This document shows, in pieces, positions 9,374-58,911 of a DNA stretch of 64,000 nt (the stretch's first letter is position 1; each line of letters opens with the position of its first letter). This stretch comes from Felixounavirus LF110P4, in the sequence record OZ035790.1; one strand, given 5' to 3'. Made by a program: the position numbers and the translations under genes. The notes under the pieces were generated by a model. It was not told the DNA's origin, searched no databases, and worked only from the letters and a program-made list of their open reading frames with translations.

Positions 9374-9889
9374 TCAACTTAGTTTTGCAAACTCTCCGTG
9401 GAGTTTCACAGCAGCTTCACAGTAAGCTTTATGGGCTTCTTCTTCCGTTGTGTATGTCCCTATATGTATAGTCTTGCCATTATGGTTAATCTGGGCTATC
9501 CACTTACCAGACTTGCTTCTACTTGTGCCTTTTAAGTTTTTTGATGTTCTAGGTTGTCTCCTGTTAGACATGTTCTGTTCTTTTGTGGCCTCTCTTAGAT
9601 TGTCCCAAGCATTATTCAAACCATCTCCATCTTTGTGGTCAATATGTTTATCAGGCCACTTACCTGTCATCCAGAACCAAGCAATTCGGTGATTACCTGT
9701 CCTGTACCCTAAAATCTGTGTGTGCATATACACACCAGACCTTGTGCGCTTAATTGCTCCAGCTTGGCTTCCAATAACCACCCTACTACTATGTGGAGGT
9801 CTGCCAATCCATGTTAAGACCCCTGTTTCGGGGTCATAATCTAACCAAGACTTTAACTGTTCATGTGTGAATCCACAATCTCTCATCAA
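9374..9889 (-). CDS. HNH homing endonuclease (HNH plus AP2-like domain)
   Basis: YDPETGVLTW N-terminal motif, HIDHKDGDGLNN HNH core, C-terminal HGEFA; paralog of ORFs at 19490 and 33197; start overlaps DNA polymerase stop. Confidence 0.75.
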   Translation of the reverse strand: MMRDCGFTHEQLKSWLDYDPETGVLTWIGRPPHSSRVVIGSQAGAIKRTRSGVYMHTQILGYRTGNHRIAWFWMTGKWPDKHIDHKDGDGLNNAWDNLREATKEQNMSNRRQPRTSKNLKGTSRSKSGKWIAQINHNGKTIHIGTYTTEEEAHKAYCEAAVKLHGEFAKLS

Positions 9890-12615
9890 TGCACCTCATA
9901 CCAGCTCTTACCAACCTTACCTGTGCCAGTTACAAGTGTCTCACTCTTCAAACCTAAATTCTTAGATGCCTGACCATACATCCAGTCAGTTATGGCTTTA
10001 ACTTCTTGAGTCATACTTTCTGGGCATTCCCAACTGTTTTCATCGTGGTATGCCAGCAAAAGCCTAGCACCAATTGCTGGTTTTCGTCCATTTAATTTTG
10101 TCAGTCCTTCTTCACATGCTCTTCTACAAGCAAGGTTAATTGCCTCATTTTGAATCTGAGCCTCCGAACCCATAAGCAAATAATTCAATAACTTATGTGG
10201 AGATTTGCACCACAACCAAGCTCCAGCAACTTTTACAAAGCCCCCTTTAGAGATTGCAGCAGTCTTACCAAACACCTCTTCAAGTGCCTTTTTAGTTGCT
10301 TTGTAGTCAGCTTCCAAATCATCCAGCAACTTCTTAATTTTAGGCAAACGGATAAAGTAAGTCTGCTTAGTCAGTGCACCTTCCTGAGTAGTTGCAGCTT
10401 TAATCGTCTTAGCAAACTTCTCATCACCTGCACCGAACAGCAGTGCATAGATACCGTTCTTAGCTTTCTTACGACCTTTGCTAATCTCATGAAGAAGGTT
10501 CTCATCCTGAGTAGCTCGACAAGTCAAGATGTCCTGCTCATCGTTCAAGCTAAAGTAAATACTGTTCAGTGTATGTGCATCAGTCCCTGAATAGACAACG
10601 TACAGGTCATTCTCAGAGTCATAGCGAAGGTACTTATCAATCTCTGGGTTGAGGTACTCATCAAAGTGTTTGCAGTAATAGCGTCTATCTTCTTGACGAA
10701 TAAACTCAATCTCTTCTTTACCTTGCGTTACCGCTTTGGTGAAGTCTTTGTCACCCATAAAGTTACAAAGGAGGACTAGCTGGGCTGAGTTCATGTCTAC
10801 AGAGACAACGTTAGTACCTTCTTCACAAATCCACACTGCCCTCATTGGTTCCCCATAGACAGCAGCACCAGACGGTACGTTTACAATACCGTACTGTGTC
10901 ATACGTCCAGTTGAAGTACCAAACACCATTGCACCAGCACTAAGGCGACCATCTGGACGAATCTGGTTCAACCAACCTTTTTCATCATCCTTTGAGTTCT
11001 CAATAGTTCTGCGTCGGTGCATCAAAGTGTAGTATTTAGCAATCTTCTGTCCAAGCTCACCTTCAATCGTATCGTAAGATGATTCAGTAAGTTTTGGTGA
11101 AGTACGGATTAAGCAAGGCTCAAGCAAATCTGTGTACTTCTTCACAGACCAGTTATGCTCAATGTACTGGACGCCTTCGTGTTCAACATAACTCAAACCA
11201 CACCGCTCAACCATTTCCTGCCACTTAGGATGCTTTGTAATCATCTTTTTATTGTCTTTGAAACGACAAACTTTGACAGGGCGACCATCAGAGTCTTTCT
11301 TGTAGTTCCAGTCATCTGGAATCCAACCAACTGATTTCAAGTAGTCTTTAACAACTGCTACCTGAGTCATACGAGAAACTTCAAACTCAATTGGTGTATA
11401 TGGTGCATCAATCAAACCTGTGTAGCGACTTGACTCAAGTTCAAAGTGGTTAACAACGTGGCTGTTATAGTACTTCACAGTTTTGACTGTTTTTACTGGC
11501 TTCCAGTCTTTGCATTTCTTACCAATCTTTGCGTTCAACTCATTGCAAATTGCACGAGCATCCTTCATTGCTACAAAGCCTTCCTTGTACTCTTCACCAG
11601 TTACAGTGTTGGTTGGTGTATAGCAATTCCTTTTTTCAATGTTAAAAATCTTTGTAGTTGGCTTACCAAATGGTTTGATTTCGTATGTCTGCATCTCGCC
11701 ATTACGTACCTGCTGACGATACTTTGTCTTAGGGTACTTGGTAATTCTTTTCAGTCCATCTGCATGACCAAATGTTTCAACATACTCATTCCAAGCTTTT
11801 GCAAACTCTTCTCCAGTGACTTTACCTTTGGTCTTAATAGTTGGAGGTAGATGCGGTTCAACTTCTGAAGCAAGTTCATTAGTCAACTTGTCAAGTTCCT
11901 TTACATGGAACTCCATAAGCTCTTTATCAGCTTTCCAACCATTGATAGCCTGTTGACTCATCCAGAAAGATGTTTCTTTAGCTCGCATGTAAGTTTCATA
12001 AGTGTCTATACCACACTTCTTAAGCTTGAGATACTCGTTATCAAGTGCCCGTTTAGTTTTGGCGTTAATACGGATATCTTCTACAACACGAGTGAAGATT
12101 TCTGCATTCCACACACCCCAATGCTCAATCTCTGGCTTACGAACACCAACACGAGCACCCCATGCAGCCAAACCATGAGCACCTTTATAACCCTTTGGAG
12201 TTGGTCTATCCATCCACTGAACACGAGACTGGATAAGAGAATCCTGAAAGTAATTACTCCACGGTTTACACTTTGGGTTATCAAAGTTCCATAAATCAGG
12301 TGCAATGTGATTAAAAACCCACCAGTCATAACCGAGACCGTTATGGATGCAAAGACGTTTTGCCTTTAACGCAAATTCAACACCTTCACGTAAACCACCC
12401 TTAATGTACTTGGTATACTTGTGACCGAGGATAGGTTCATCTGTAAAGACCCATACAGGTGGCTCTTCATCGTCAGATTTATAGTCTGCGAAAGCCATTA
12501 CGTGCACTTTAGTGAACTCAAGGAGTAAACCATCAGTTTCTGTATCACCAACTAAATGTAAGTTTTTAAAATCTACGTTTTCCATTTTTACTCCCTCTAA
12601 AATCATTAACCTCAT
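9886..12615 (-). CDS. DNA polymerase, family A (T7-like) with 3'-5' exonuclease domain
   Basis: 909 aa; exo I motif VGDTETDG, exo II HNGLGYD, C-terminal polymerase domain. Confidence 0.85.
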   Translation of the reverse strand: MRLMILEGVKMENVDFKNLHLVGDTETDGLLLEFTKVHVMAFADYKSDDEEPPVWVFTDEPILGHKYTKYIKGGLREGVEFALKAKRLCIHNGLGYDWWVFNHIAPDLWNFDNPKCKPWSNYFQDSLIQSRVQWMDRPTPKGYKGAHGLAAWGARVGVRKPEIEHWGVWNAEIFTRVVEDIRINAKTKRALDNEYLKLKKCGIDTYETYMRAKETSFWMSQQAINGWKADKELMEFHVKELDKLTNELASEVEPHLPPTIKTKGKVTGEEFAKAWNEYVETFGHADGLKRITKYPKTKYRQQVRNGEMQTYEIKPFGKPTTKIFNIEKRNCYTPTNTVTGEEYKEGFVAMKDARAICNELNAKIGKKCKDWKPVKTVKTVKYYNSHVVNHFELESSRYTGLIDAPYTPIEFEVSRMTQVAVVKDYLKSVGWIPDDWNYKKDSDGRPVKVCRFKDNKKMITKHPKWQEMVERCGLSYVEHEGVQYIEHNWSVKKYTDLLEPCLIRTSPKLTESSYDTIEGELGQKIAKYYTLMHRRRTIENSKDDEKGWLNQIRPDGRLSAGAMVFGTSTGRMTQYGIVNVPSGAAVYGEPMRAVWICEEGTNVVSVDMNSAQLVLLCNFMGDKDFTKAVTQGKEEIEFIRQEDRRYYCKHFDEYLNPEIDKYLRYDSENDLYVVYSGTDAHTLNSIYFSLNDEQDILTCRATQDENLLHEISKGRKKAKNGIYALLFGAGDEKFAKTIKAATTQEGALTKQTYFIRLPKIKKLLDDLEADYKATKKALEEVFGKTAAISKGGFVKVAGAWLWCKSPHKLLNYLLMGSEAQIQNEAINLACRRACEEGLTKLNGRKPAIGARLLLAYHDENSWECPESMTQEVKAITDWMYGQASKNLGLKSETLVTGTGKVGKSWYEVH

Positions 12616-18465: not shown

Positions 18466-19512
18466 ATGGAGAAGTACACATTAAAAAAACTTCCCGATTC
18501 AGTTACACATGTCTTTATTGACTCTGACAGTATTGCCTATAAAGGTGCTTGTGTAGTTGAGAAAGCAAAATATAAATATGTCAATAAACTCACAGCAGAA
18601 GAATCTGAATCATTTGATAATGCAAAAGATGCTGCAAGATGGTTAGCAGACCAGAGAATCCTTGTAGAAGAGCTTGGCCTAGCATTTGATGAAGATGAAT
18701 GGGAAAGACAGACTTGGAAAGAAGCTAAGAGTGAAAAAGAAGCTATCATGGCTACTCAGCAGGTTCTTCAGGAATGGCTTAAGGTTGTTGGTAAAGAAAG
18801 AACTTGGGTAGGTTATTTAACAGAGAAAGGTGTGCATAAACATAAAGACATTAAAGGTCTTGAGCACCAATATCAAGGGAACCGTAAAGATGCTGTCACA
18901 CCAACACACTTAGTTGCTTGTCGTGAATACCTTCTGTCAAGACCAGAGTTCAAATTGATTCTTGATGGATTTGAAGCTGACTCTATCGTTATTGCTAAAG
19001 CTGAAAAGATGGGTAAAAAGGCTGCCTTAATGAGTATTGATAAAGACCTTCGCCAAGCTGAAGGGACTTACTGCATTGATATGACCTATGAAAAGTCGCC
19101 TTTGATTTTCATTGCTGATAACAACGTAGGTGAAATTTGGGATTGCCCAATAAAATCGACACCAAAAGCTAAGAAGACAGTTGGGGTAGGTTTTAAATTT
19201 CTTTGCTATCAAGCCGTGGCTGGTGATAATGCGGATAATTATTTTGGCTTAAAGGGTGTTGGCAAGGTTACTATAATGAAAGCCCTTGAAGGCAAAACCA
19301 CCTACAAAGAGTGTCTTGATGCAATTTATGAGCTTTATGCTAAGAAAGAGTCATACACTTATATCTCGTGGGATGGTCAAACAATTACCAGAACACCTTT
19401 AGAGTTAATGCAGCAACACTTTTTCTTAGCTTATCAGGAAAGAAACAAGAAAGATGATTTCACTTTTGATAAGTATGGATGGACACCAAATGTTAACCCA
19501 ACAAACTCTTAA
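18466..19512 (+). CDS. 5'-3' exonuclease / flap endonuclease (FEN family)
   Basis: Acidic metal-binding residues (FIDSDS, GFEADS) and helix-3-turn-helix region AGDNADNYFGLKGVGKVT. Confidence 0.55.
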   Translation: MEKYTLKKLPDSVTHVFIDSDSIAYKGACVVEKAKYKYVNKLTAEESESFDNAKDAARWLADQRILVEELGLAFDEDEWERQTWKEAKSEKEAIMATQQVLQEWLKVVGKERTWVGYLTEKGVHKHKDIKGLEHQYQGNRKDAVTPTHLVACREYLLSRPEFKLILDGFEADSIVIAKAEKMGKKAALMSIDKDLRQAEGTYCIDMTYEKSPLIFIADNNVGEIWDCPIKSTPKAKKTVGVGFKFLCYQAVAGDNADNYFGLKGVGKVTIMKALEGKTTYKECLDAIYELYAKKESYTYISWDGQTITRTPLELMQQHFFLAYQERNKKDDFTFDKYGWTPNVNPTNS

Positions 19513-19981
19513 AGAATACCTACACTATGACCCCGAAACAGGGGTCTTTACTTGGATTAAGAAGTCTGCTAGACACACAAAAATTGGCTCTGTTGCAGGT
19601 ACAAACTTAAGAGGGTACACCAGAATTTATTTGTTTGGTAAGGGTTATTATGCACATACTCTAGCTGTTCTGTATATGGATGGATACCTACCTGAGTGTG
19701 TTGACCATAAAAATCATGTAACACTAGACAATCGATGGGTAAATCTTAGGGCATGTACATTATCAGAGAACCAATGCAATAGGTTGCTCAATAAGAACAA
19801 TAAATCAGGTGTTAAAGGTGTGTACTACAAAAAACAGTATGGTAAGTGGTCTACACAGATAACTTTTAAGAAGAAAGTTTACTTCTTCGGAAACTATGAC
19901 ACTATTGATGAAGCAGCAGAGGTTGTAAATAGGGAACGCCAACGTTTACACAAAGAGTTTGCTAATAAAGGTGATGAATGA
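19490..19981 (+). CDS. HNH homing endonuclease (HNH plus AP2-like)
   Basis: YDPETGVFTW motif, HNH core CVDHKNHVTLDN, C-terminal HKEFA; start set at internal Met. Confidence 0.7.
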   Translation: MLTQQTLKEYLHYDPETGVFTWIKKSARHTKIGSVAGTNLRGYTRIYLFGKGYYAHTLAVLYMDGYLPECVDHKNHVTLDNRWVNLRACTLSENQCNRLLNKNNKSGVKGVYYKKQYGKWSTQITFKKKVYFFGNYDTIDEAAEVVNRERQRLHKEFANKGDE

Positions 19982-26263: not shown

Positions 26264-28408
26264 ATGAACAAAGTACAGATTATTAAAAAGAATGGCTCAC
26301 TTGAAGAACCTGATATCAAAAAAGTTTTAGCAGCAGTAACTAAGTCAGCTAACAGGGTTGGATATAAAGAACTCCCACCAGATGTTACCCAAGCTCTTGA
26401 GTCAGCATTTATGAGGATTCTGGTAAAGTCCACTAAACAGAATAATTTGCTAATTTCGGTAAATGATATTCACAGTATTGTTGAGGGTGCTTTGGCAGAA
26501 GTCAATCACGAAATCTATGAGTCTTACTCAACATATAGAAATTACCGTAAAGAAGTTGCTCAAAATTGGGATGAACTCTACCAGAAGACCAGAGATACAC
26601 TCTTCTTAGGTGACAGAGAGAATGCTAACTTTGACAGCAGTTTAATTTCTACAAAAGGTTCAATTATTCGTGGTTACCTGACTAAAGAAATCTTTAAGCA
26701 GTACCATTTAACACCAGAGGAACTTGAAGCCATTGAAAAAGGGTTTATCTATATCCACGATTTAAGAGACCTGATTTTTGGCGGCATTAACTGTTGCTTG
26801 TTTGACATTGGTAAAGTACTGAAAGGTGGCTTTGAGATGTCTGGCATCGAATACTGTGAACCGAAGTCTGTGCTGTCAGCCTTACAGGTTATTGGTGATG
26901 TAGTTCTTTCAGCAACTGCACAGCAATTTGGTGGATTTACTTTAGCAGAGATTGATAAGGTGCTTGTACCGTATGCTAAAAAGTCTCTACGCTACCATGC
27001 TGAGAAAGCAGCATCTTACGGTATTCCTAAAGAACATTACCACAATTATGTCATGGAGCAGCTACAGCTTGAATTAACTCAGGGTTTCCAGTCACTCGAA
27101 ATGAAACTAAATACTGTACCTTGTAGCCGTGGTGATTTTGCATTTACAACTTTGACATTTGGATTACTTGACTCAGATATGTCTAATGAAGACAACCGAC
27201 TGCAATACATGATTGCAAACACCATTCTTGATGTTCGCATGAATGGACAAGGTAAGAGTAAGAAGCCTGTTGTATTCCCTAAACTGGTTTATATTCATGA
27301 CCAGAAGAGACACGATGAGAATATCTGTCAAGGCCAACTGTACAGTAAAGCTATAGAGTGTTGCTCTAAAGCGATGTATCCAGATTTCTTAAGTGTATCT
27401 GGTCATGGTGCTGTAGCAGAAGCTTTTGAGCGTTCTGGCAAGGTAATCTCGCCGATGGGTTGTAGAGCCTTCTTATCTCCATATCTTAACGAGGATGGGG
27501 AAGAGTTCTACGTTGGTCGTGCTAACATTGGTGCTGTATCTTTGAACTTACCAATGATTTACCAGTATTCTAAAGAGAATGGTTTAGATTTCTGGAAAGA
27601 GCTTGATAAGTACCTAGAGATGATTCGCAACTTCCACAAGAAACGCTACGAAATGATTGCTAATATGCCAGCAAGTTCTAACCCTCTTGCGTTCACACAA
27701 GGTGGTCTGTACAAAGGAACTAAGAAACCTACTGACAAGGTTGGTTGGGATATTGTGAAGTCCTTCACAGCTTCTTTTGGTGTTACTGCGCTTGATGAGT
27801 TGTCTGTTCTTGCTGAAGGTAAACGACTTCATGAAGTTGGAAGCTATAGTTTTGCATATGATGTTCTGGCATACATTAACATGAAAACCGAAGAGTTTAA
27901 AAATGAAGATGGCTTCTTATATGCCGTCTATGGTACTCCAGCAGAATCACTATGTGGGACTCAGCTAAAACAGTTCAGAGATATGTTTGGGGTTATCAAA
28001 GGTGTTTCCGATAAGGAATACTTTACAAACAGTTTCCATATGAATGTTGTAGCAGACATCTCACCATTTGAGAAGCAGGACTTAGAAGAGCCATTCTTCC
28101 ATATCTGTAGAGGCGGTAGAATCCAGTATGTAAGAGTAGCTAACCCAGAAAACTTATCAGCACTTAAGAGCTGTATTACAAGAGGAATGTTGAAAGGTTT
28201 CTATCAGGGACTTAACTTTGACTTAGCAATCTGTGAACATTGTGGTAACAGGCCAAAGGCTGATGTTGAAGAATGTGAAGTTTGTCACTCACATGATATC
28301 TCTGTGATTAACAGGGTGTGCGGGTACTTGTCATTCACAAAAATTAAAGGTCAGTCTCGAATGAATGACGCTAAGATGGCAGAAATTAAGGATAGGGTTT
28401 CTATGTAG
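26264..28408 (+). CDS. nrdD: anaerobic ribonucleotide reductase (class III)
   Basis: 714 aa; N-terminal ATP-cone, C-terminal zinc ribbon and glycyl-radical motif RVCGYLS. Confidence 0.85.
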   Translation: MNKVQIIKKNGSLEEPDIKKVLAAVTKSANRVGYKELPPDVTQALESAFMRILVKSTKQNNLLISVNDIHSIVEGALAEVNHEIYESYSTYRNYRKEVAQNWDELYQKTRDTLFLGDRENANFDSSLISTKGSIIRGYLTKEIFKQYHLTPEELEAIEKGFIYIHDLRDLIFGGINCCLFDIGKVLKGGFEMSGIEYCEPKSVLSALQVIGDVVLSATAQQFGGFTLAEIDKVLVPYAKKSLRYHAEKAASYGIPKEHYHNYVMEQLQLELTQGFQSLEMKLNTVPCSRGDFAFTTLTFGLLDSDMSNEDNRLQYMIANTILDVRMNGQGKSKKPVVFPKLVYIHDQKRHDENICQGQLYSKAIECCSKAMYPDFLSVSGHGAVAEAFERSGKVISPMGCRAFLSPYLNEDGEEFYVGRANIGAVSLNLPMIYQYSKENGLDFWKELDKYLEMIRNFHKKRYEMIANMPASSNPLAFTQGGLYKGTKKPTDKVGWDIVKSFTASFGVTALDELSVLAEGKRLHEVGSYSFAYDVLAYINMKTEEFKNEDGFLYAVYGTPAESLCGTQLKQFRDMFGVIKGVSDKEYFTNSFHMNVVADISPFEKQDLEEPFFHICRGGRIQYVRVANPENLSALKSCITRGMLKGFYQGLNFDLAICEHCGNRPKADVEECEVCHSHDISVINRVCGYLSFTKIKGQSRMNDAKMAEIKDRVSM

Positions 28409-28415
28409 AATACAA

Positions 28416-28994
28416 ATGAATTACGAACTAATATATAATGCAATTATTAAAAAGGCACATTCTGAAAGGGGTGTGCCTCTCACATACTACAAATGTCAAG
28501 GTAAGGGTTATGAAAGACACCATATCATACCAGTATGTCTAGGTGGCGATAAAATTAGTGGAGATAACATTGCTTTACTTACACCTAGAGAGCATTATAT
28601 AGCTCATAAATTACTGGTTAAGATGTATCCAAACAATCATAAGTTATGGTTTGCATGGAGCAGGTTAGCTCATGATGGCCTAGATAGGAAAATATCATCC
28701 AGAGACTATGAAAAGGTAAGGGCTTTAAACTCGAAAGCTCTATCGATTGTGAATAAAGGTAGGGTTTTCACTGAAGAGCATCGAAGACGATTAGGAGAAG
28801 CTCAAATAGGTAATACAAAGTCAAAAGGTTGTAAAAGGTCTATGGAAACAAGGAAGAAGATGTCAGAAGCCGGAAAAAAGCCAAAGAAAAAGAAAACTTG
28901 CCCGCATTGTGGCATGACTGGTGGTGCTGGTAACATGACTCGATATCATTTTGACAATTGTAAGAAAAAAAAAATAACCTTATGTAAAACTTGA
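28416..28994 (+). CDS. HNH homing endonuclease
   Basis: HHIIPVCLGGDKISGDNIALLTPREH HNH core, basic repeat segments and C-terminal CPHCG zinc motif; inserted between nrdD and nrdG. Confidence 0.65.
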   Translation: MNYELIYNAIIKKAHSERGVPLTYYKCQGKGYERHHIIPVCLGGDKISGDNIALLTPREHYIAHKLLVKMYPNNHKLWFAWSRLAHDGLDRKISSRDYEKVRALNSKALSIVNKGRVFTEEHRRRLGEAQIGNTKSKGCKRSMETRKKMSEAGKKPKKKKTCPHCGMTGGAGNMTRYHFDNCKKKKITLCKT

Positions 28995-31457: not shown

Positions 31458-31508
31458 ACAGATACTATAAGGGGACTGTAAAGGTTCCCTTTTTATTTTG
31501 GAGGTAAA

Positions 31509-32024
31509 ATGTATCTGTCAAACCTGAAACGTTCGGTTGCAATGTCAGTTCTAAGACTCAGCTTTGATGAGCGTCAAGAGTTTATAGACTCCCACAAATA
31601 TGACCCTTCAAATTCTAATCACATGGTTCTTTGGAATCGTGATAACTTCCGTGAAAGAGCACTTGTCCGTTATTACCCACACTACACAATAGATAACCTG
31701 TATGAATGGTGTGTTGTGAAGAACACCATTGCAACACTGAACAATCTTTGCAGGTATACGGGTAAGCAAACATTTACATTAGGTCATCACAAACCTGTTA
31801 CAAAAGGTGGTGAACATCACTGTGCAAACTGGTTTATCCAAACTAAAGCTGATAACCAGAAGCAAGGAGATAGCCTCCTAAGTATCCCTAAGATGACCTA
31901 TGAAGAGCAAGAGAAATATATCAAAAATAATATGCCAGATGTGCTTGACAACAACTATACAGATTTGGCAATATCTCTCCTGTTGAAGTTCGAGACAGTT
32001 TATAGGGCAACTTATAATGGCTAA
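31509..32024 (+). CDS. possible HNH nuclease
   Basis: LGHHKPVTKGGEHHCANWFIQTKADNQ resembles HNH core. Confidence 0.45.
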   Translation: MYLSNLKRSVAMSVLRLSFDERQEFIDSHKYDPSNSNHMVLWNRDNFRERALVRYYPHYTIDNLYEWCVVKNTIATLNNLCRYTGKQTFTLGHHKPVTKGGEHHCANWFIQTKADNQKQGDSLLSIPKMTYEEQEKYIKNNMPDVLDNNYTDLAISLLLKFETVYRATYNG

Positions 32025-32295
32025 AGAAAAGTGGGAGATTTTAACATTAGTCAGTGAAGGAGGTAATGGTTGTGAAATGTACATGATACGTGGTCATGTT
32101 CCAGAGCCAATTGCACTTGAGATGGTAAACAACTTTACAGATGGTTCTTACAAAGACTTAGGCGAACCAACTGTCAAGCAACAATGGGTTAAACCTGTAC
32201 CAGACAGCACAGGTAACTGTAGTGTACTTTATCACGTTGTAGACCCTGCAAAATGCAAATCTGCAATGGCAGTAACAAACGTAACTTTTGATTGA
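32017..32295 (+). CDS. hypothetical protein
   Basis: 92 aa ORF. Confidence 0.4.
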   Translation: MAKEKWEILTLVSEGGNGCEMYMIRGHVPEPIALEMVNNFTDGSYKDLGEPTVKQQWVKPVPDSTGNCSVLYHVVDPAKCKSAMAVTNVTFD

Positions 32296-33188
32296 GAGAG
32301 AAAACTATGAAAACATCTATCCGTGTTACAGTTCATTCACCAACTAAAGGAACTCATGAAGAAGAGTTTAACATCATCCAATTTCCTTCTGGTGAGATTG
32401 GTGGACACTTTTCGCCAGAGTTTGTTGATTTCACTGCTTATGCAGCATCATCCATCAACAATGTGATTATGATTGTAAAAGGTTATGATAAGGACACTTT
32501 GTTTGCTGTGGCACTTGCTAAAGAAGCAATTGATGATTTAATTCCTCATGATTATGCTTTAAAGACTGTCATCTTTTACTACTTACCAAATGCACGTTAT
32601 GACCGTCACATGTTTAAAGGCGACGCAGCAGCTTTAAAGGTTTTTGCTAAACAGGTAAATGCAATGGGATTTGGTGCAGTCTGTGCAGTTGACCCTCACA
32701 GTTACGTTCCAGATAACCTGTTTAACTGCTTCCAGAGTATTCCTCAAAAGGAGATTGCAGTCCACTATGCAAATGACCCACTGGTTGATTACTTAGTAGC
32801 CCCAGATGCAGGTGCTGCTAAGAAGGTTGCAGAGACCGCTAAAGAGGTGGATAAACCATATATCACAATGTCTAAGGTGCGTAACCTTAAGACTGGTGAA
32901 ATTACTGGTATGCGAATCCTTGATGATGTTGATTTGACAGATAAAACCGTCATGATTCTGGATGATATCTGTGATGGTGGTCGAACCTTCATAGAAGCAG
33001 CTAAGCATCTTCGTGAAGCAGGTGCAAAACGTGTGGAACTCTATGTAACACATGGTATCTTCTCTAAAGATGTTGAAAACCTTCTTGACAATGGTATTGA
33101 CCACATCTACACTACAAACTCTTTAGGGGAAGCTAAAGACCGTGGTTTAACACATTATGGTCAAGTTACTGTAGCAAATTTGGACTAG
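32292..33188 (+). CDS. ribose-phosphate pyrophosphokinase-like protein (Prs family; possibly ADP-ribose pyrophosphokinase)
   Basis: Type I PRTase PRPP-binding loop VMILDDICDGGRT; about 300 aa. Confidence 0.7.
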   Translation: MREKTMKTSIRVTVHSPTKGTHEEEFNIIQFPSGEIGGHFSPEFVDFTAYAASSINNVIMIVKGYDKDTLFAVALAKEAIDDLIPHDYALKTVIFYYLPNARYDRHMFKGDAAALKVFAKQVNAMGFGAVCAVDPHSYVPDNLFNCFQSIPQKEIAVHYANDPLVDYLVAPDAGAAKKVAETAKEVDKPYITMSKVRNLKTGEITGMRILDDVDLTDKTVMILDDICDGGRTFIEAAKHLREAGAKRVELYVTHGIFSKDVENLLDNGIDHIYTTNSLGEAKDRGLTHYGQVTVANLD

Positions 33189-33196
33189 GTAACAGT

Positions 33197-33688
33197 ATGA
33201 ATAAGGGTTATTTTGAAAAATACCTAATATATGAACCAGATACAGGTTTATTAATTTGGAAAGTAACCCTTTGCAGTACCGCTATTGCTGGTAATGTGGC
33301 TGGCACAAGGTCTAAGAAGGGTTATATCCAAGTCCAGATAAATAAGAAGAGGTACTATGCACATAATATTGCATGGATTATGTCTGGGGGTGAGATACCA
33401 AGTGGATATGAGATAGACCACATAGACCTTGATAAAGCTAATAATAAGTTGGAGAACTTAAGACTTAGCACAAAGTCACAAAATCAGAGGAATAGGGGTA
33501 TACACAAGAATAATAAGACTGGTGTGAAGGGTGTAAGTTTTTGTAAACAAACAGGTCTTTACAAAGCAAGAGTCATGCTTTACCATAAAGAATACTTTTG
33601 TGGAAGATTTAAAACAGTAGAAGAAGCAAAAGAAGCTGTAATTAAAAAGCGAATAGAACTTCATGGTGAGTTTGCAAGACATAACTAA
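33197..33688 (+). CDS. HNH homing endonuclease (HNH plus AP2-like)
   Basis: YEPDTGLLIW motif, HNH core EIDHIDLDKANN, C-terminal HGEFA; lies between Prs-like and NAMPT-like genes. Confidence 0.75.
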   Translation: MNKGYFEKYLIYEPDTGLLIWKVTLCSTAIAGNVAGTRSKKGYIQVQINKKRYYAHNIAWIMSGGEIPSGYEIDHIDLDKANNKLENLRLSTKSQNQRNRGIHKNNKTGVKGVSFCKQTGLYKARVMLYHKEYFCGRFKTVEEAKEAVIKKRIELHGEFARHN

Positions 33689-33704
33689 GAGAGAGAGATA
33701 AAAT

Positions 33705-35486
33705 ATGAGTAAGTCACTTTACGCAGTACCAGCAGGTCTTAATGCAGATGCTTACAAGGCATCACATATATATCAGTATCCAGATGCTACACAGTATCTT
33801 ATGTTGAACCTGACACCACGTAGTGACAAATGGTTTAACAGCCCCTTAGCAATTGACGGTGTAGTGGCTTTTGGTATTCAACGTTTTGTTAAAGACTACC
33901 TGATAGACCACTGGAATGCCACCTTCTTTGAACGTGACAAAAAAGAAGCAATTGACGAAATCTTAGAAGTCATGAACGGTGTTCTGGGTAAAGATGCTAT
34001 TGGTCGAGAACATTGGGAAGCACTTCACGACTTAGGTTATCTACCAGTTGAAGTATACGCTGTAGAAGAAGGTACAGTTGTTCCTATGCGTGTACCAATG
34101 ATTGTCTTCCAGAATACTGTTTCAGGTTTCCATTGGGTAGCGGGGTATCTGGAAGATGCTTTCTCTGCTGAGATTTGGAAGGCTTGTACCATTGCAACTA
34201 TTGCATTGCACTACAAACGTATCTGTAAGAAGTGGTCTGACCTTACTTGTGACAACGACTTGCATTTGCCTTATCAGTGCCATGATTTTGCTATGCGTGG
34301 TATGTCCGGCTTTACCGATGACGCATTTAACGCTGTAGGCCACTTAACCAGCTTTAAAGGAACTGATAGCTTCCCTGCTGTGTATACGGCTAAACGAATC
34401 TATGGACAGTCTTACCCAATATCTGATATTGGTAGCTCTGTACCAGCCACTGAGCACTCTGTAATGTGTGCAAACATTGCTTGGGAAGGTGGTAATGAGT
34501 TGATTGAAGAAGAAAGACGCTTTAAAGGTGAGTTACAAACCTTCCGTCGTTTCTTAACAGAAACTTACCCAACTGGTATTGCAAGTATTGTTTCAGATAC
34601 TTATAACTTCTGGAGAACTGTGTCAGAAATCTTACCAGCACTCCGTAAAGAAATTATGGAACGTGATGGTAAACTGGTAATTCGCCCTGACTCTGGAGAC
34701 CCTGTACATATTGTCACAGGTTATAAAGCAATCCACTTAGAGTGTGCTAAAAAGGCTTATTACGAGCACCTAAGCAAGCTTGAAGCCAGCGACACAATGT
34801 TGAATGCTGTTCTGAACATGAAGCTTGAAAACATCAACTATGGTATTGCTGGATGGCTACTGTCAGAAGGCTACGAAATGGTTGTTGACAGAGAAGACTT
34901 TGAAGTTGCTGATACAGTGCTGTTGAAAAACGCTTATATGGTTGGTTCTGCAAACGTTGTAACACGTCCTGTAGCGGAGATTGATGGAGCTATCAAGACA
35001 CTGTATAACATCTTTGGGGGAACTATTAACTCTAAAGGGTTTAAGGTACTGGATGAGCACATCGGCCTTATCTATGGTGACTCTATCACGCTGGAACGTG
35101 CAAACGAAATCCTGAAGCGTCTGTATGAAATGGGTTTTGCAAGCTCTAACGTAGTATTTGGTGTAGGCTCTTACACTTACCAGTACATGACTCGTGACAC
35201 CTTTGCATTTGCTGTCAAAGCAACTCTTGCAAGCATTGGTGGTAAAGAGATTATGCTTGCAAAAGACCCTAAAACAGATAGTGGTGTTAAGAAATCTGCC
35301 TTTGGTGGTGTAGCACCTATGTGGGATGGTGAAAATCTGAAAGCTGTAGATGGCTATGGGTTCCAGAGCTTTGCAGATGCACTTGAACACCCAGCTTGTG
35401 CTTTACGTCTAGTCTTTAGTGACTCTGAGCAGTTCGGCTACACAACTCTTGGTGATATTCGAAATAATATTGACAAGCAGCTTTAA
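33705..35486 (+). CDS. nicotinamide phosphoribosyltransferase-like protein (NAMPT/NadV family)
   Basis: 593 aa; assignment to the NAMPT/NadV family is by recognition of the overall sequence, with no single diagnostic motif picked out. Confidence 0.7.
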   Translation: MSKSLYAVPAGLNADAYKASHIYQYPDATQYLMLNLTPRSDKWFNSPLAIDGVVAFGIQRFVKDYLIDHWNATFFERDKKEAIDEILEVMNGVLGKDAIGREHWEALHDLGYLPVEVYAVEEGTVVPMRVPMIVFQNTVSGFHWVAGYLEDAFSAEIWKACTIATIALHYKRICKKWSDLTCDNDLHLPYQCHDFAMRGMSGFTDDAFNAVGHLTSFKGTDSFPAVYTAKRIYGQSYPISDIGSSVPATEHSVMCANIAWEGGNELIEEERRFKGELQTFRRFLTETYPTGIASIVSDTYNFWRTVSEILPALRKEIMERDGKLVIRPDSGDPVHIVTGYKAIHLECAKKAYYEHLSKLEASDTMLNAVLNMKLENINYGIAGWLLSEGYEMVVDREDFEVADTVLLKNAYMVGSANVVTRPVAEIDGAIKTLYNIFGGTINSKGFKVLDEHIGLIYGDSITLERANEILKRLYEMGFASSNVVFGVGSYTYQYMTRDTFAFAVKATLASIGGKEIMLAKDPKTDSGVKKSAFGGVAPMWDGENLKAVDGYGFQSFADALEHPACALRLVFSDSEQFGYTTLGDIRNNIDKQL

Positions 35487-35500
35487 AAGTATATGATAAG

Positions 35501-35524
35501 AGGCTCCTACGGGAGCCTTTTTAA
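35501..35524 (+). terminator. rho-independent terminator
   Basis: AGGCTCCtacgGGAGCCT hairpin followed by TTTTT. Confidence 0.6.
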
Positions 35525-35539
35525 TTTCTGGAGAATGCT

Positions 35540-35884
35540 ATGGACAACCTTTCCATATGGTTTAACAAGAAACCTGTGCAACCGAAATACTTACAAGTTG
35601 CCTATACAGACATCCTTGAAGTTCTCGGTAAAGAAAAGTTTGAAAAGTTTTGTGAAGGTATCTACAATCACCACTGCCAATTTGCTACAAAAGAAGGTAT
35701 GTTTGTCATAGAACAGTTCTTTGGCAGAGACCCAGATGACTACGAAGAGATTAGCTTTGTAATGAAATACATGATAGAGTATATTGAAAATCGTGGATTC
35801 GAAGTTAATCCTGAATTTTATGAACATGAGGGTGTGCCTTTAGCAAAAGGTTTTGATGGCATACTCGTTAACTGGACTTGGTGA
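35540..35884 (+). CDS. hypothetical protein
   Basis: 114 aa ORF. Confidence 0.4.
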   Translation: MDNLSIWFNKKPVQPKYLQVAYTDILEVLGKEKFEKFCEGIYNHHCQFATKEGMFVIEQFFGRDPDDYEEISFVMKYMIEYIENRGFEVNPEFYEHEGVPLAKGFDGILVNWTW

Positions 35885-36225
35885 AAATTATGAAAATCAA
35901 AGAGATGAACATCAACATTGTCTTAGAAGAGCGTTGGGAGAACATCAAGAAACCTGAAAATGGTCATAAGTTCCTTAACAAAATCTTGGTAGCAGCTAAA
36001 GAAGAACTGACTGGAAAGGTTGCAGCAGCAATCACAATAAAGGTTTGTGTAAAAGGTCTTCCACAACATCACCAGTTTGCACTTGACGAGTTTAAAGAAA
36101 GCTTCTACAATCCAAACAAACAGATGCTTGAAAGTAACTTTGCAGTATCTACAAGTATCGTTCATGACAGAAGCTTTATCCTTTACAAAAATATGAGAGG
36201 TGAGTCATGCAAGCATATTGGATAG
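35878..36225 (+). CDS. hypothetical protein
   Basis: 115 aa ORF. Confidence 0.4.
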   Translation: MVKIMKIKEMNINIVLEERWENIKKPENGHKFLNKILVAAKEELTGKVAAAITIKVCVKGLPQHHQFALDEFKESFYNPNKQMLESNFAVSTSIVHDRSFILYKNMRGESCKHIG

Positions 36226-43337: not shown

Positions 43338-44123
43338 ATGGGTATTGTAAAAATCATCAAAGGTGATATCTTTGACGCATTTGATAAAGGCAAATTTGAT
43401 ATCATTGGTCATGGTTGCAACTGTATGAATTTCATGGGTGCAGGTATTGCAGCAACTATTTCTAAGCATTATCCAAAAGTGTATGATACTGACACAGAAG
43501 TTTACCTGTTTGCAGGTGGCATTCGTCACAAACCCTGTGAAAATTTACTAGGTAATTTCTCTGTAGCACGTTTAAAACAAGGCCGTATAGCTAACCTTTA
43601 CACCCAACTTCATACTGGTAAAGATGCCCGATACAGTGCTTTAGAGTCATCTTTGAAACAGCTTAACAGATACTGTGAAGTTAACCAGTTGAAGAAAGTT
43701 GGTCTACCTATGATTGGTGCAGGTATCGGTGGACTTGACCCTCAAGCTGTCACAGTTATCATTAATCAGGTGATGAAGAGTGTAGATGTTTATCTGTATG
43801 TCTATGAAGCAAAAATGTATAATGAGTTACACTCAGGTTGGAAAAACTACTGTGAACCAGAATACTTTGCAGGTGTAGTTGTGTTCACAGATAACGCAGT
43901 TACCCTCTTCAGACGAAGAAAAGGTAAGATACATCAAAGTAACCCTCCGGTTGAAAAGATGTCTCTAAGTAACGCTCTAGTTACCCACCTGTCGAAGAGC
44001 AATCACAGAATTGCAGTAACATTTGGCAGTGATGCAGATGCTTATATCTATGCAAGAACTGATGAGGATATTGAGTTAATCTTCTCTTCACCAGAACTTA
44101 CCTTCTTAGACGCAAAGAACTAA
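43338..44123 (+). CDS. macro-domain-like protein (putative ADP-ribose binding/hydrolase)
   Basis: N-terminal KGDIFDA ... DIIGHGCNCMNFMGAGIAATI resembles the macro-domain Gly-rich ligand-binding loops; C-terminal about 130 aa unassigned. Confidence 0.45.
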   Translation: MGIVKIIKGDIFDAFDKGKFDIIGHGCNCMNFMGAGIAATISKHYPKVYDTDTEVYLFAGGIRHKPCENLLGNFSVARLKQGRIANLYTQLHTGKDARYSALESSLKQLNRYCEVNQLKKVGLPMIGAGIGGLDPQAVTVIINQVMKSVDVYLYVYEAKMYNELHSGWKNYCEPEYFAGVVVFTDNAVTLFRRRKGKIHQSNPPVEKMSLSNALVTHLSKSNHRIAVTFGSDADAYIYARTDEDIELIFSSPELTFLDAKN

Positions 44124-58324: not shown

Positions 58325-58401
58325 CTCTGTTTAGCTCAGCTTGGTAGAGCGTTCCGTTTGGGGCGGTAAGGCCGGAGGTTCAAGTCCTCCAACAGAGACC
58401 A
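58325..58401 (+). tRNA. tRNA-Pro (anticodon UGG)
   Basis: Manual cloverleaf: acceptor CTCTGTT/AACAGAG, T-arm GGAGGttcaagtCCTCC, anticodon loop TTTGGGG, CCA encoded. Confidence 0.6.
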
Positions 58402-58408
58402 AATTAAT

Positions 58409-58486
58409 GTTCCAGTAGACAAAATGGTAAAGTCACCACTCTTTCAAAGTGGATATTTGAGGGTTCAAATCCCTTCTGGAACGCCA
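58409..58486 (+). tRNA. tRNA-Glu (UUC)
   Basis: Acceptor GTTCCAG/CTGGAAC, anticodon stem CCACT/AGTGG, loop CTTTCAA, T-loop TTCAAAT. Confidence 0.6.
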
Positions 58487-58493
58487 GTTTTGA

Positions 58494-58565
58494 CAGAAGA
58501 CCAATTACAGCAAACTTAATCTACTCATCTGAAAGTTAATCGGACAAAGAAGATATTTGGTCTGG
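58494..58565 (+). ncRNA. candidate structured RNA element 1 (bulged closing stem CAGAAGACCAA/TTGGTCTGG)
   Basis: 5' CAGAAGACCAATTACAGCAA and 3' TTGGTCTGG inverted repeat; member of a 4-copy family with covarying stem. Confidence 0.35.
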
Positions 58566-58576
58566 TCATTAAGAAT

Positions 58577-58653
58577 TGCGGGTATAGAGAAAGGGCGTCT
58601 CACATGTCTCATTAGCATGGTATCGGCAGGTTCGACTCCTGCACCCGCCTCCA
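58577..58653 (+). tRNA. tRNA with CAU anticodon (Met/fMet/Ile2 type)
   Basis: T-arm GCAGGttcgactCCTGC, acceptor TGCGGGT/ACCCGCC with 1-72 mismatch, anticodon loop CTCATTA; structure partly irregular. Confidence 0.45.
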
Positions 58654-58659
58654 AATTTA

Positions 58660-58724
58660 CAGAAGACCGTTTACAGCAATATTTATTAAGTTTTTAGCGG
58701 AAAAAATTGAAAGATACGGTCTGG
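58660..58724 (+). ncRNA. candidate structured RNA element 2
   Basis: 5' CAGAAGACCGTTTACAGCAA and 3' ACGGTCTGG; stem covaries (CGT/ACG versus CAA/TTG) relative to element 1. Confidence 0.35.
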
Positions 58725-58737
58725 TAATACTAAACAT

Positions 58738-58814
58738 GGTTAGGAAGCACATAAGGTATGTGCGGTCGCCTGTTAAGCGAATGGCACAGGGTTCGAATCC
58801 CTGACTAACCGCCA
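58738..58814 (+). tRNA. tRNA-Asn (GUU)
   Basis: D-stem GCAC/GTGC, anticodon loop CTGTTAA, T-arm CAGGGttcgaatCCCTG, CCA encoded. Confidence 0.6.
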
Positions 58815-58823
58815 AATTTAAAT

Positions 58824-58911
58824 GTGTCGTTATCCCGTAGATGGTAGCGGTGGGGACTGTAAATCCCTTGTCATTGAGACTCGGTAGGTTCGACTCCTAC
58901 ACGGCACACCA
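58824..58911 (+). tRNA. tRNA-Tyr (GUA), class II
   Basis: 88 nt with long variable arm; anticodon stem-loop GGGGActgtaaaTCCCT; T-arm GTAGGttcgactCCTAC. Confidence 0.6.

What the first reader, a model, noticed from the sequence alone, without database searches (positions are those of the whole stretch)
32292..35486. Prs-like and NAMPT-like gene pair split by a homing endonuclease: candidate NAD+ reconstitution (NARP1-type) counter-defence
A ribose-phosphate pyrophosphokinase-family protein (PRPP-binding loop VMILDDICDGGRT) and a NAMPT/NadV-family protein are encoded together, separated only by an HNH endonuclease ORF. Co-encoded Prs-like and NAMPT-like enzymes in phages have been reported to act as ADP-ribose pyrophosphokinase plus nicotinamide ADP-ribose transferase that rebuild NAD+ after host NAD+-depleting immunity; classical NAD+ salvage is the alternative.
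Basis: partly seen in the sequence, partly recalled or inferred. Interest (0 to 1): 0.7.

Follow-up and report, generated by a model that had tools for sequence, protein, structure and literature searches.

The report
Known phage NAD+ rebuilding operon (NARP1)
This is the two-enzyme phage pathway (NARP1) that rebuilds NAD+ after bacterial immunity destroys it, in a FelixO1-like phage closely related to the one where the pathway was discovered. A selfish homing-endonuclease gene sits between the two enzyme genes, so the finding is correct but already known.

Summary
Three same-strand ORFs encode a Prs-family protein (true start probably 32307, to 33188), an HNH_3/AP2 endonuclease (33197..33688) and a NAMPT-family protein (33705..35486).

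The window is a Felixounavirus, 95-97% identical to dozens of GenBank phages. The two enzymes are orthologues of genes 79-80 of phage Bas63 (JohannRWettstein), the phage in which NARP1 was found: Namat 97% identical, Adps 78%. Bas63 was the in vivo model (deletion phenotype, ADPR-PP detection). The enzymology was done on SPbetaL1 homologues.

The Namat-like protein carries the published Namat signature (GSYTYQYMTRD, K42-W43 clamp loop) and the catalytic core. The Adps-like protein keeps the mutationally essential lysine.

The HNH gene is a 512-bp mobile cassette. It replaces a 40-bp intergenic hairpin, occurs in about 61 of about 260 related genomes (including FelixO1), is under purifying selection, and is more conserved across genera than its flanks.

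The only possibly new point is a Macro-domain gene 7.85 kb downstream (43338..44123). It belongs to the same PHROG family as the validated ADPR-1''-phosphate phosphatase Adpp of the extended pathway NARP1-AP. A published scan limited to two genes either side of NARP1 would have missed it.

The parts
31469..31491 (+). Terminator-like hairpin plus T-run upstream of the gene block. It is the likely 5' boundary of the transcription unit.
   Evidence: Consensus scan. It folds at -11.9 kcal/mol, which is not significant against shuffles. A terminator is annotated at the equivalent place in AYO145A, Mordin and Moogle.
31509..32024 (+). ORF of 171 aa, function unknown (phrog_3500), with a weak degenerate HNH-like motif. 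It is conserved upstream of adps in all relatives. Membership in the pathway is not shown.
   Evidence: phrog_3500 4e-93; phrog_2214 HNH 2e-6; synteny.
32017..32295 (+). ORF of 92 aa, function unknown (phrog_4726). It overlaps the previous ORF by 8 nt and ends 11 nt before the adps ATG.
   Evidence: In Mordin two extra ORFs separate it from adps, so tight coupling is not conserved.
32307..33188 (+). adps: ADP-ribose pyrophosphokinase (Prs family), 293 aa. Predicted to convert ADPR + ATP into ADPR-pyrophosphate + AMP.
   Evidence: It is 78% identical to Bas63 gp79 and 36% identical/100 bits to the biochemically characterised SPbetaL1 Adps, against 29%/62 bits to E. coli Prs. K190 aligns with the essential K162 of SPbetaL1 Adps. 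It falls below all NCBIfam Prs equivalog cut-offs and has no Pribosyltran_N hit. dN/dS is 0.09-0.19.
33179..33690 (+). Mobile HNH cassette (512 bp). In HNH-minus relatives this interval is a ~40-bp spacer with the hairpin GGGGCTTAAAAGCCCC followed by ATTTT.
   Evidence: In six HNH-minus relatives homology breaks at 33177/33178 (33173 in AYO145A, 33187 in Mordin) and resumes at 33691 in all six. The lost hairpin folds at -11.5 kcal/mol and is annotated as a terminator in AYO145A.
33197..33688 (+). Free-standing HNH_3 + AP2-like homing endonuclease gene, 163 aa.
   Evidence: Pfam and PHROGs. It is present in 61 phage records, one copy each, at the adps/namat junction in every record where I cross-checked the coordinates, and absent from ~199. 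It is 90-93% identical at the protein level across three genera where the flanks are 74-77%. dN/dS is 0.07-0.18, and dS is lower than that of the flanks.
33705..35486 (+). namat: nicotinamide ADP-ribose transferase (NAMPT family), 593 aa. Predicted to convert ADPR-PP + nicotinamide into NAD+ + PPi.
   Evidence: It is 97% identical to Bas63 gp80. The best PDB matches are the SPbetaL1 Namat crystal structures 9w5w/9w5x (E 3e-128, 46.7% identical), far above bacterial or human NAMPT. It has the SCH motif GSYTYQYMTRD at aa 488-498, the SCL residues K42-W43, and core residues D15, Y17, F195, R198, D221, H251, R327 and D329.
35498..35521 (+). Strong terminator-like hairpin directly after namat. A promoter-like site at 35470-35497 overlaps the namat 3' end.
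   Evidence: -16.6 kcal/mol, z = -3.4.
43338..44123 (+). Macro-domain protein, 261 aa (the 'putative phosphatase' bas63_0095 orthologue). It is a candidate ADPR-1''-phosphate phosphatase (Adpp-like) acting in trans. Its link to NARP1 is not established.

Best explanation
The locus is a NARP1 (NAD+ reconstitution pathway 1) operon of a Felixounavirus. When a host NADase-type defence (SIR2, TIR or SEFIR effectors) cleaves NAD+ into ADP-ribose and nicotinamide, the Prs-family enzyme Adps (32307..33188) pyrophosphorylates ADP-ribose with ATP to give ADPR-PP. The NAMPT-family enzyme Namat (33705..35486) then joins ADPR-PP to nicotinamide to regenerate NAD+, which lets the phage replicate. Between the two genes sits a free-standing HNH homing-endonuclease gene. 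It is a selfish cassette that replaced a short intergenic hairpin, is co-transcribed with the operon, and is not part of the biochemical pathway. Shown here: orthology, the signature residues, and the anatomy, polymorphism and mobility of the cassette. Taken from published experiments on the orthologue or homologues: the chemistry and the counter-defence phenotype. Inferred: that this particular Adps allele and the HNH-split arrangement are fully functional.
For: The window is a Felixounavirus: 257 phage records match, the best at 95-97%. Bas63 is a Felixounavirus with the same gene order. Namat is 97% and Adps 78% identical to Bas63 gp80 and gp79. Published work on Bas63 shows that deleting genes 79-80 gives ~20-fold fewer plaques on SIR2-HerA and NAD+ depletion, that ADPR-PP appears only with these genes plus the defence system, and that the effect is independent of pncC/nadR. 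SPbetaL1 homologues convert ADPR to ADPR-PP to NAD+ in vitro. The Namat signature GSX-phi-X-phi-X-phi-TRD and the SCL Lys followed by a stacking residue (PMC12774641) are present as GSYTYQYMTRD and K42-W43. Of the 15 NAD+-contacting core residues, 13 are identical to the SPbetaL1 crystal structure. Adps keeps the essential Lys and is closer to SPbetaL1 Adps than to E. coli Prs. Both enzyme genes are intact and under purifying selection, with dN/dS 0.03-0.19. Both have GAGAGAGA Shine-Dalgarno-like motifs. The block is bracketed by terminator-like hairpins, with none between the genes.
Against: No enzyme from this phage, or from any Felixounavirus, has been assayed in vitro. The biochemistry comes from SPbetaL1 homologues that are only 36% (Adps) and 47% (Namat) identical. 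The Adps here belongs to a different allele class from Bas63 over its 5' half (48-78% nt identity in 63-nt bins), so substrate specificity for this allele is inferred. No published sequence signature separates Adps from Prs, and I built no formal tree. Namat retains PRPP-dependent NMN synthesis in vitro, so some classical salvage activity cannot be excluded. The HNH-split arrangement, which lacks the intergenic hairpin, has not itself been tested for counter-defence.
Confidence: 0.88

Rival explanations
1. Classical NAD+ salvage booster. The Prs-like enzyme makes PRPP from ribose-5-phosphate, the NadV-like enzyme makes NMN from PRPP and nicotinamide, and host NadR or PncC finishes NAD+. This raises NAD+ for phage metabolism in general rather than countering defence.
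For: This is how Pfam, PHROGs, NCBIfam and every GenBank record name the genes. The NAMPT-like protein passes the NCBIfam equivalog cut-off (469 against 405 bits). SPbetaL1 Namat can make NMN from PRPP in vitro.
Against: The Bas63 orthologues act independently of pncC and nadR and produce ADPR-PP in vivo. SPbetaL1 Adps was assayed with ribose-5-phosphate or ADPR and characterised as an ADPR pyrophosphokinase; the exact ribose-5-phosphate outcome is in a figure I could not read. SPbetaL1 Namat makes only NAD+ when both donors are present. The adenine-clamp motif is present. The Prs-like protein falls far below all Prs equivalog cut-offs, for example 91 against 297 bits.
Confidence: 0.07
2. The operon is impaired by the homing-endonuclease insertion, through polar effects, loss of the intergenic RNA element or altered Adps:Namat stoichiometry. 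NARP1 would then be weak or inactive in HNH-plus phages.
For: The cassette removes a conserved hairpin that all six HNH-minus relatives examined retain. No HNH-plus phage has been tested experimentally as far as the searched literature shows.
Against: Both flanking ORFs are intact with their Shine-Dalgarno-like motifs. namat shows the strongest purifying selection among HNH-plus genomes, with dN/dS 0.03-0.04. The arrangement persists in about 61 genomes of three genera, including FelixO1, which would be unlikely if it abolished a useful function.
Confidence: 0.05

Closest known systems
NARP1 of Escherichia phage JohannRWettstein (Bas63), genes bas63_0079 (Adps) and bas63_0080 (Namat), MZ501086 (Osterman et al. 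2024)
   Same: Same genus, same flanking genes from nrdG to rIIA, same gene lengths (293 and 593 aa). Namat is 97% identical, including the clamp loop and SCH motif. The C-terminal 113 aa of Adps are ~96% identical.
   Different: Bas63 has a 45-nt spacer with a hairpin between the genes and no HNH, whereas the window has the 512-bp HNH cassette. Residues 1-180 of Adps are only ~68% identical, a different allele class. Codon 2 of namat is Ser here and Thr in Bas63.
Salmonella phage FelixO1 ORF127-128-129 (prs / HNH / nadV), NC_005282
   Same: The three-gene arrangement is identical, with the HNH at the same junction and the same junction polymorphisms: a TAG stop for adps and an MSK start for Namat.
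   Different: FelixO1 carries the Bas63-class Adps allele (81.6% identical). Its HNH is 91% identical. It is annotated as classical NAD+ salvage.
NARP1 of Bacillus phage SPbetaL1 (biochemically and structurally characterised; PDB 9w5w/9w5x)
   Same: Same two-enzyme logic, the same catalytic residues and the same SCH signature.
   Different: Identity is only 36% (Adps) and 47% (Namat). The SPbetaL1 genes abut with no spacer. The SCL uses Arg40 rather than Lys-Trp. The Felixounavirus-group Namat has a ~90-aa insertion found in no other phage group in the phage records searched.
NARP1-AP of Vibrio phage Gary (Adps-Adpp-Namat; Osterman et al. 2026 preprint)
   Same: Three genes with the middle position occupied. 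The window phage also encodes a phrog_335 Macro protein homologous to Adpp.
   Different: Here the middle gene is a homing endonuclease, not a Macro phosphatase. The Macro gene lies 7.85 kb downstream and carries an extra C-terminal domain of about 100 aa.
Free-standing HNH homing endonucleases of T-even-type phages (intronless homing)
   Same: It is an intergenic insertion between conserved genes, shows presence/absence polymorphism at a fixed site, has sequence changes in the flanking target region linked to presence, and is more similar across genomes than its flanks.
   Different: The cleavage site and activity are unknown. Its domain make-up is HNH_3 plus an AP2-like DNA-binding module.

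Membership tests
NARP1 (Adps + Namat) | A Prs-family protein of the Adps clade rather than a cellular Prs | tested here: met
   It is 78% identical to Bas63 Adps, one of the clade-defining queries. It scores 100 bits against SPbetaL1 Adps and 62 bits against E. coli Prs. It falls below every NCBIfam Prs equivalog cut-off. No formal tree was built.
NARP1 (Adps + Namat) | A Namat homologue within 10 genes of adps (criterion of Osterman et al.) | tested here: met
   One intervening gene; 516 nt lie between the adps stop codon and the namat start.
NARP1 (Adps + Namat) | Namat selectivity-clamp helix motif GS-X-phi-X-phi-X-phi-TRD with aromatic X | tested here: met
   GSYTYQYMTRD at aa 488-498. phi3 is Met instead of the usual Asn/Val, as in Bas63.
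NARP1 (Adps + Namat) | Selectivity-clamp loop after the conserved TPR: third residue Arg, Lys or Tyr, with a stacking residue | tested here: met
   The loop reads S40-D41-K42-W43, identical to Bas63, for which the fourth residue was modelled as the stacking residue.
NARP1 (Adps + Namat) | Catalytic residues whose mutation abolishes the pathway (SPbetaL1 Adps K162; Namat R306, D215) | tested here: met
   Adps K190 aligns with K162. Namat R327 aligns with R306 and D221 with D215, and H251 lies in the ATEHS motif.
NARP1 (Adps + Namat) | Enzymatic conversion of ADPR + ATP to ADPR-PP, then ADPR-PP + nicotinamide to NAD+ | not testable with these tools
   Shown in vitro only for SPbetaL1 and Paenibacillus homologues. 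ADPR-PP was detected in vivo for Bas63.
NARP1 (Adps + Namat) | Rescue of the phage from NAD+-depleting defence | not testable with these tools
   Shown for the Bas63 orthologue against SIR2-HerA, not for this phage or for any HNH-plus relative.
NARP2 (Nampt + Nmnat) | Nampt-clade enzyme with an NMN adenylyltransferase partner and no Adps | tested here: not met
   Adps is adjacent, and the protein is closer to Namat structures (432 bits) than to other phage, bacterial or human NAMPT (355, 179 and 145 bits). No Nmnat is annotated in the part of the Bas63 record I read, genes 52-161. Not all window ORFs were scanned.
NARP1-AP (Adps + Adpp + Namat) | A Macro-domain ADPR-1''-P phosphatase within two genes of NARP1 | tested here: not met
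   The middle gene is an HNH. Of the nearest neighbours, the two upstream ORFs and the first downstream ORF gave no Pfam hit at E<=0.01 and the second downstream ORF (35878..36225) none at E<=0.1, so none is a Macro protein. Table S1 of the paper lists no Escherichia, Salmonella, Shigella, Citrobacter or Erwinia phages.
NARP1-AP (Adps + Adpp + Namat) | An Adpp-family (phrog_335, Poa1p-like) Macro protein encoded by the same phage | tested here: inconclusive
   The ORF at 43338..44123 is in phrog_335 (8e-114), like validated Adpp, with E 1e-14 to Gary Adpp. However, the family also occurs in T4-like phages, which I believe lack NARP1, and the fold is equally close to DarG and TARG1.
Free-standing HNH homing endonuclease | Complete HNH nuclease motif plus a DNA-binding module | tested here: met
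   HNH_3 matched 1-46/46 at E 5.5e-19, with an AP2-like C-terminal part. The ORF is a full-length 163 aa in all five HNH-plus genomes.
Free-standing HNH homing endonuclease | Presence/absence polymorphism at one site, and horizontal spread shown by higher similarity than the flanks | tested here: met
   It is present in 61 records and absent from ~199. Against FGS030 the HNH dS is 0.03 while the flanks are 0.23-0.24. Across genera it is 0.27-0.44 against 0.74-1.16 for adps.
Free-standing HNH homing endonuclease | Site-specific cleavage of the HNH-minus allele and gene conversion | not testable with these tools
   There is only indirect support. The adps stop codon (TAG against TGA/TAA) and namat codon 2 (AGT against ACT) are linked to HNH presence in 11 of 11 genomes.
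Cellular ribose-phosphate pyrophosphokinase (Prs) | Scores above the curated Prs equivalog thresholds and has the N-terminal Pribosyltran_N domain | tested here: not met
   The best equivalog score is 104.5 bits against a cut-off of 296. Only the broad TIGR01251 subfamily is passed, at 122 against 113 bits. No Pribosyltran_N hit was found.

The most novel reading that the evidence does not exclude
Felixounaviruses may run an extended, physically split NARP1-AP pathway. The Macro-domain protein at 43338..44123, in the same PHROG as the validated ADPR-1''-phosphate phosphatase Adpp, would convert the ADPR-1''-P made by RES-type (aRES) NAD+ phosphorylases into ADPR. That would feed the Adps/Namat pair 7.85 kb upstream and extend counter-defence to aRES. 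The published survey only looked within two genes of NARP1 and lists no enterobacterial phages, so this arrangement would have been missed.
Probability: 0.3. Interest if true: 0.45.

Novelty: already known. Interest (0 to 1): 0.2.

Why it matters
NARP1 is an important, recently discovered counter-defence: phages rebuild the metabolite that host immunity destroys. This window adds no new principle, because it is the same system in the same phage genus in which the pathway was discovered.

Three practical points follow:
- GenBank, PHROG and NCBIfam names for these genes ('ribose-phosphate pyrophosphokinase', 'nicotinamide phosphoribosyltransferase') are outdated for more than 250 Felixounavirus-group genomes used in phage therapy and typing.
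- About a quarter of these genomes carry a mobile HNH gene inside the operon that removes an intergenic hairpin. These are natural isogenic-like variants for testing whether operon architecture affects counter-defence strength.
- The distal Adpp-like Macro gene suggests that searches for pathway extensions restricted to immediate neighbours may under-count them.

Tried and rejected
1. I guessed the Bas63 accession. MZ501111, MZ501078 and MZ501083-85 were other BASEL phages; the right record, MZ501086, was found.

2. A MAFFT alignment of the window and Bas63 junctions was misleading because of the large indel. It was replaced by BLAST breakpoints and direct reading.

3. I looked for a published Adps-versus-Prs sequence signature and found none in the two papers. 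Adps membership therefore rests on orthology and relative similarity, not on a motif.

4. I looked for the Adpp residues that were mutated in the aRES preprint, to test them in the window Macro protein. They are marked only in a figure that is not held as text.

5. I considered that the upstream ORFs (171 aa and 92 aa) might be pathway members. I did not pursue this, because they have no informative domains and Mordin has two extra ORFs between them and adps.

6. I considered that the Macro protein is a DarG/TARG1-type glycohydrolase acting against DarT. By alignment it has Gln90 and Gly131 where TARG1 has its catalytic Lys84 and Asp125 (residue identities from my own knowledge of TARG1; alignment), as do the Adpp proteins. 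I rate this lower but have not excluded it.

7. I checked whether the ~90-aa Namat insertion is an intein or another mobile element. There is no evidence for that. In the phage records searched it occurs only in the Felixounavirus group (Felixounavirus, Mooglevirus, Suspvirus), always inside Namat.

8. I did not run the large representative-protein search, a metagenome scan or a genome-contig scan. Orthology to a characterised system was already decisive.


Full report
**Observation**

The ORF list for 30-38 kb shows three consecutive + strand ORFs at the reported coordinates:
- 32292..33188: 298 aa when counted from a TTG.
- 33197..33688: 163 aa.
- 33705..35486: 593 aa.

Pfam assigns them as follows:
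- ORF1: Pribosyltran plus Pribosyl_synth.
- ORF2: HNH_3 (full-length match, E 5.5e-19) plus a weak AP2 hit.
- ORF3: NAPRTase plus NAMPT_N.

PHROGs gives phrog_619, phrog_99 and phrog_448 with E-values from 1e-68 to 2e-201. The quoted PRPP-loop string VMILDDICDGGRT is present.

One correction applies. The Prs-like gene almost certainly starts at the ATG at 32307 (MKT...). That ATG sits 5 nt downstream of a GAGAGAGA Shine-Dalgarno-like motif. All annotated relatives start there, giving a 293-aa protein.

**What the window is**

The region 32000-35600 matches 257 phage records, nearly all Felixounavirus-group phages of Escherichia, Salmonella, Shigella and Citrobacter, with the best at 95-97% identity. 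A 25-kb stretch behaves the same way. The window is thus a Felixounavirus genome segment, with the usual nrd genes, rIIA/rIIB and a 26-tRNA array.

**Relation to the characterised system**

NARP1 was discovered in BASEL phage Bas63 (JohannRWettstein), using genes 79-80. The published evidence on that phage is (bioRxiv 10.1101/2024.02.11.579819):
- Deleting genes 79-80 gives ~20-fold fewer plaques on SIR2-HerA hosts and stronger NAD+ depletion.
- ADPR-PP appears only when both the genes and the defence system are present.
- The effect does not need host pncC or nadR.

I located the Bas63 record, MZ501086. It is a Felixounavirus with the same gene order as the window, from nrdG through several small ORFs, gene 79, gene 80 and further small ORFs to rIIA.
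- The window NAMPT-like protein is 97% identical to gp80 over all 593 residues.
- The Prs-like protein is 78% identical to gp79 over 293 residues with no gaps.

These are orthologues of the founding NARP1 genes.

**Signature tests for Namat**

The best PDB sequence matches are 9w5w and 9w5x (E about 3e-128). These are the SPbetaL1 Namat crystal structures; a tblastn of the 9w5x sequence retrieves SPbetaL1 at 100%. The next matches are much weaker:
- Another phage enzyme: 355 bits.
- A bacterial NAMPT homologue (7yqo, deposited as 'Pre-B cell enhancing factor related protein'; probably the Xanthomonas enzyme): 179 bits.
- Human NAMPT: 145 bits.

The structural paper (PMC12774641) defines two Namat-specific elements. 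One is the clamp helix motif GS-X-phi-X-phi-X-phi-TRD with aromatic X residues that stack on adenine. The other is a clamp loop whose third residue is Arg, Lys or Tyr. Mapping through the HMMER alignment gives these results:
- The clamp helix reads GSYTYQYMTRD at aa 488-498.
- The clamp loop reads S40-D41-K42-W43, identical to Bas63.
- Of the 15 NAD+-contacting core residues, 13 are identical: D15, Y17, F195, R198, D221, A248, R327, D329, G458, D459, G488, S489 and R497.
- The other two are conservative changes at positions the paper describes as making backbone or non-specific contacts.
- R327 corresponds to R306, whose mutation abolishes the pathway.

**Signature tests for Adps**

No published motif separates Adps from Prs, so the evidence here is comparative:
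- It is 36% identical (100 bits) to the biochemically characterised SPbetaL1 Adps.
- It is 29% identical (62 bits) to E. coli Prs.
- The essential Lys (SPbetaL1 K162, B. subtilis Prs K197) is conserved as K190.
- Its scores fall far below all NCBIfam Prs equivalog cut-offs.
- It has no Pribosyltran_N hit.

**The HNH gene**

In six HNH-minus relatives (Bas63, LF82P3, typing phage 1, REP7, AYO145A, Mordin), homology to the window stops at 33177/33178 (33173 in AYO145A, 33187 in Mordin). It resumes at 33691 in all six. The 512-bp interval replaces a ~40-bp spacer containing GGGGCTTAAAAGCCCC followed by ATTTT. That hairpin folds at -11.5 kcal/mol and is annotated as a terminator in AYO145A.

The HNH gene is found in 61 phage records, one copy each. 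In every record where I could cross-check the coordinates it lies at this junction (fetched examples are FelixO1, Moogle, phiSUSP1 and FGS030). About 199 records have the uninterrupted junction.

Two flanking polymorphisms are linked to HNH presence in all 11 genomes compared, spanning three genera:
- All five HNH-plus genomes have TAG as the adps stop codon and AGT (Ser) as namat codon 2.
- All six HNH-minus genomes have TGA or TAA, and ACT (Thr).

The HNH protein is 90-93% identical between genera whose flanking enzymes are only 74-77% identical. Its synonymous divergence is well below that of the flanks:
- Against FGS030: 0.03, compared with 0.23-0.24 for the flanks.
- Across genera: 0.27-0.44, compared with 0.74-1.16 for adps.

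Its dN/dS is 0.07-0.18. This is the pattern expected of an active, horizontally spreading, free-standing homing endonuclease. Its target probably spans the end of adps, the spacer and the start of namat. It is a passenger, not a pathway component.

The window holds two paralogues, at 19454..19981 and 9374..9889 (37-39% identical).

**Operon anatomy**

Terminator-like hairpins lie at 31469-31491 and, more strongly, at 35498-35521 (-16.6 kcal/mol, z = -3.4). There are none between adps, HNH and namat. The likely transcription unit is ORF171, ORF92, adps, HNH, namat. Both enzyme genes keep GAGAGAGA motifs upstream.

In HNH-minus phages the intergenic hairpin could attenuate or stabilise transcripts between the two genes. 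In this window that element is gone. Whether this changes the Adps:Namat ratio is unknown.

**Mechanism**

Host SIR2, TIR or SEFIR effectors cleave NAD+ to ADPR and nicotinamide. Adps transfers pyrophosphate from ATP to ADPR to give ADPR-PP. Namat couples ADPR-PP to nicotinamide to give NAD+.

- Shown here: orthology and signature residues.
- Shown in the literature for the orthologue or homologues: the chemistry and the phenotype.
- Inferred for this phage: that its Adps allele and the HNH-split layout work in the same way.

**Rivals**

Classical PRPP/NMN salvage is what all database names imply, and Namat can still use PRPP in vitro. The Bas63 data argue against it as the main role (pncC/nadR independence, ADPR-PP in vivo), as does the clamp motif.

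Impairment of the operon by the HNH insertion is unlikely. The ORFs are intact, purifying selection on namat is strong (dN/dS 0.03-0.04), and the arrangement persists in about 61 genomes including FelixO1.

**Beyond the finding**

A 2026 preprint (10.64898/2026.01.28.702374) describes a defence called aRES, which makes ADPR-1''-phosphate, a molecule NARP1 cannot use. It also describes NARP1-AP operons that add a Macro-domain phosphatase, Adpp. That survey scanned only two genes on each side of NARP1.

In this window the middle gene is an HNH, and the nearest neighbours gave no Macro hit in Pfam. However, 7.85 kb downstream (43338..44123) there is a 261-aa protein with these properties:
- A Pfam Macro domain at 29.4 bits, above the cut-off of 22.
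- Membership of phrog_335 at 8e-114. Validated Adpp of Vibrio phage Gary and three other NARP1-linked Macro proteins fall in the same PHROG.
- 28% identity to Gary Adpp across Adpp's whole length, E 1e-14.
- Eleven invariant columns shared with seven Adpp-type proteins.

Against a specific link to NARP1, the family occurs in 2876 phage records. These include T4-like phages, which to my knowledge lack NARP1. All Felixounavirus-group genomes carry both genes, so co-variation within the group is uninformative. The preprint's Table S1 lists no enterobacterial phages. A split NARP1-AP is therefore possible but unproven; I put it at about 0.3.

**Verdict**

The system is already known, as an orthologue of the founding NARP1 example in the same genus. 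The HNH-split layout has been present in public records since FelixO1. Interest is low, at about 0.2.

Noticed in passing
window 43338..44123 (+): A 261-aa Macro-domain protein in the same PHROG (phrog_335) as the validated ADPR-1''-phosphate phosphatase Adpp of NARP1-AP, plus an extra beta-rich C-terminal domain of about 100 aa with no detected homologue. It lies 7.85 kb downstream of namat, outside the two-gene radius scanned in the aRES preprint.
   Followed up: partly
window 32307..32750 (5' half of adps): adps is mosaic. Its 5' ~440 nt are only 48-78% identical (63-nt bins) to the Bas63/FelixO1/AYO145A allele class, while the 3' half is mostly 90-98% identical to that class (84-95% to Bas63 itself; the last bin abuts the HNH junction). 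LF82P3, typing phage 1 and REP7 carry the window-type allele. Two deeply diverged N-terminal Adps alleles therefore circulate within one genus.
   Followed up: partly
window ~34716..34985 (Namat aa ~338-427) and ~34476..34520 (aa ~258-272): The Felixounavirus-group Namat has an insertion of about 90 aa and a second of about 15 aa relative to SPbetaL1 Namat and cellular NAMPT. A tblastn of the 90-aa segment finds it only in 253 Felixounavirus-group records, always inside Namat. Its function is unknown, and the Namat structure paper does not discuss it.
   Followed up: partly
window 19454..19981 (+) and 9374..9889 (-): Two paralogues of the HNH_3/AP2-type endonuclease, 39% and 37% identical to the one in the NARP1 operon. 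The second abuts the 909-aa ORF at 9886..12615.
   Followed up: no
window 28365..28994 (+): A 209-aa ORF with a NUMOD3 motif and a weak colicin-DNase/HNH hit overlaps the 3' end of the 714-aa nrdD-like ORF (26264..28408). In Bas63 nrdD is instead annotated as two joined pieces with a homing endonuclease inside. This is a different mobile-element configuration at nrdD.
   Followed up: no
window 35543..35878 (ORF 35540..35884, 114 aa, phrog_20372): A presence/absence polymorphism of a small ORF just downstream of namat. It is present in the window, Bas63 and typing phage 1, and absent from LF82P3, REP7 and AYO145A.
   Followed up: no
window 31509..32024 (+): A conserved 171-aa ORF upstream of adps has a weak, probably degenerate HNH-like motif (phrog_2214, 2e-6, aa 58-124) but is fixed in all relatives. 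It appears to be in the same transcription unit as NARP1.
   Followed up: no
window 32294..32306 and 33688..33704: The same GAGAGAGA motif precedes the ATG of both adps and namat, and is conserved in HNH-minus relatives. It is probably the Shine-Dalgarno-like element of these genes.
   Followed up: no
window 58325..63585 (+): An array of 26 tRNA genes, typical of Felixounaviruses.
   Followed up: no
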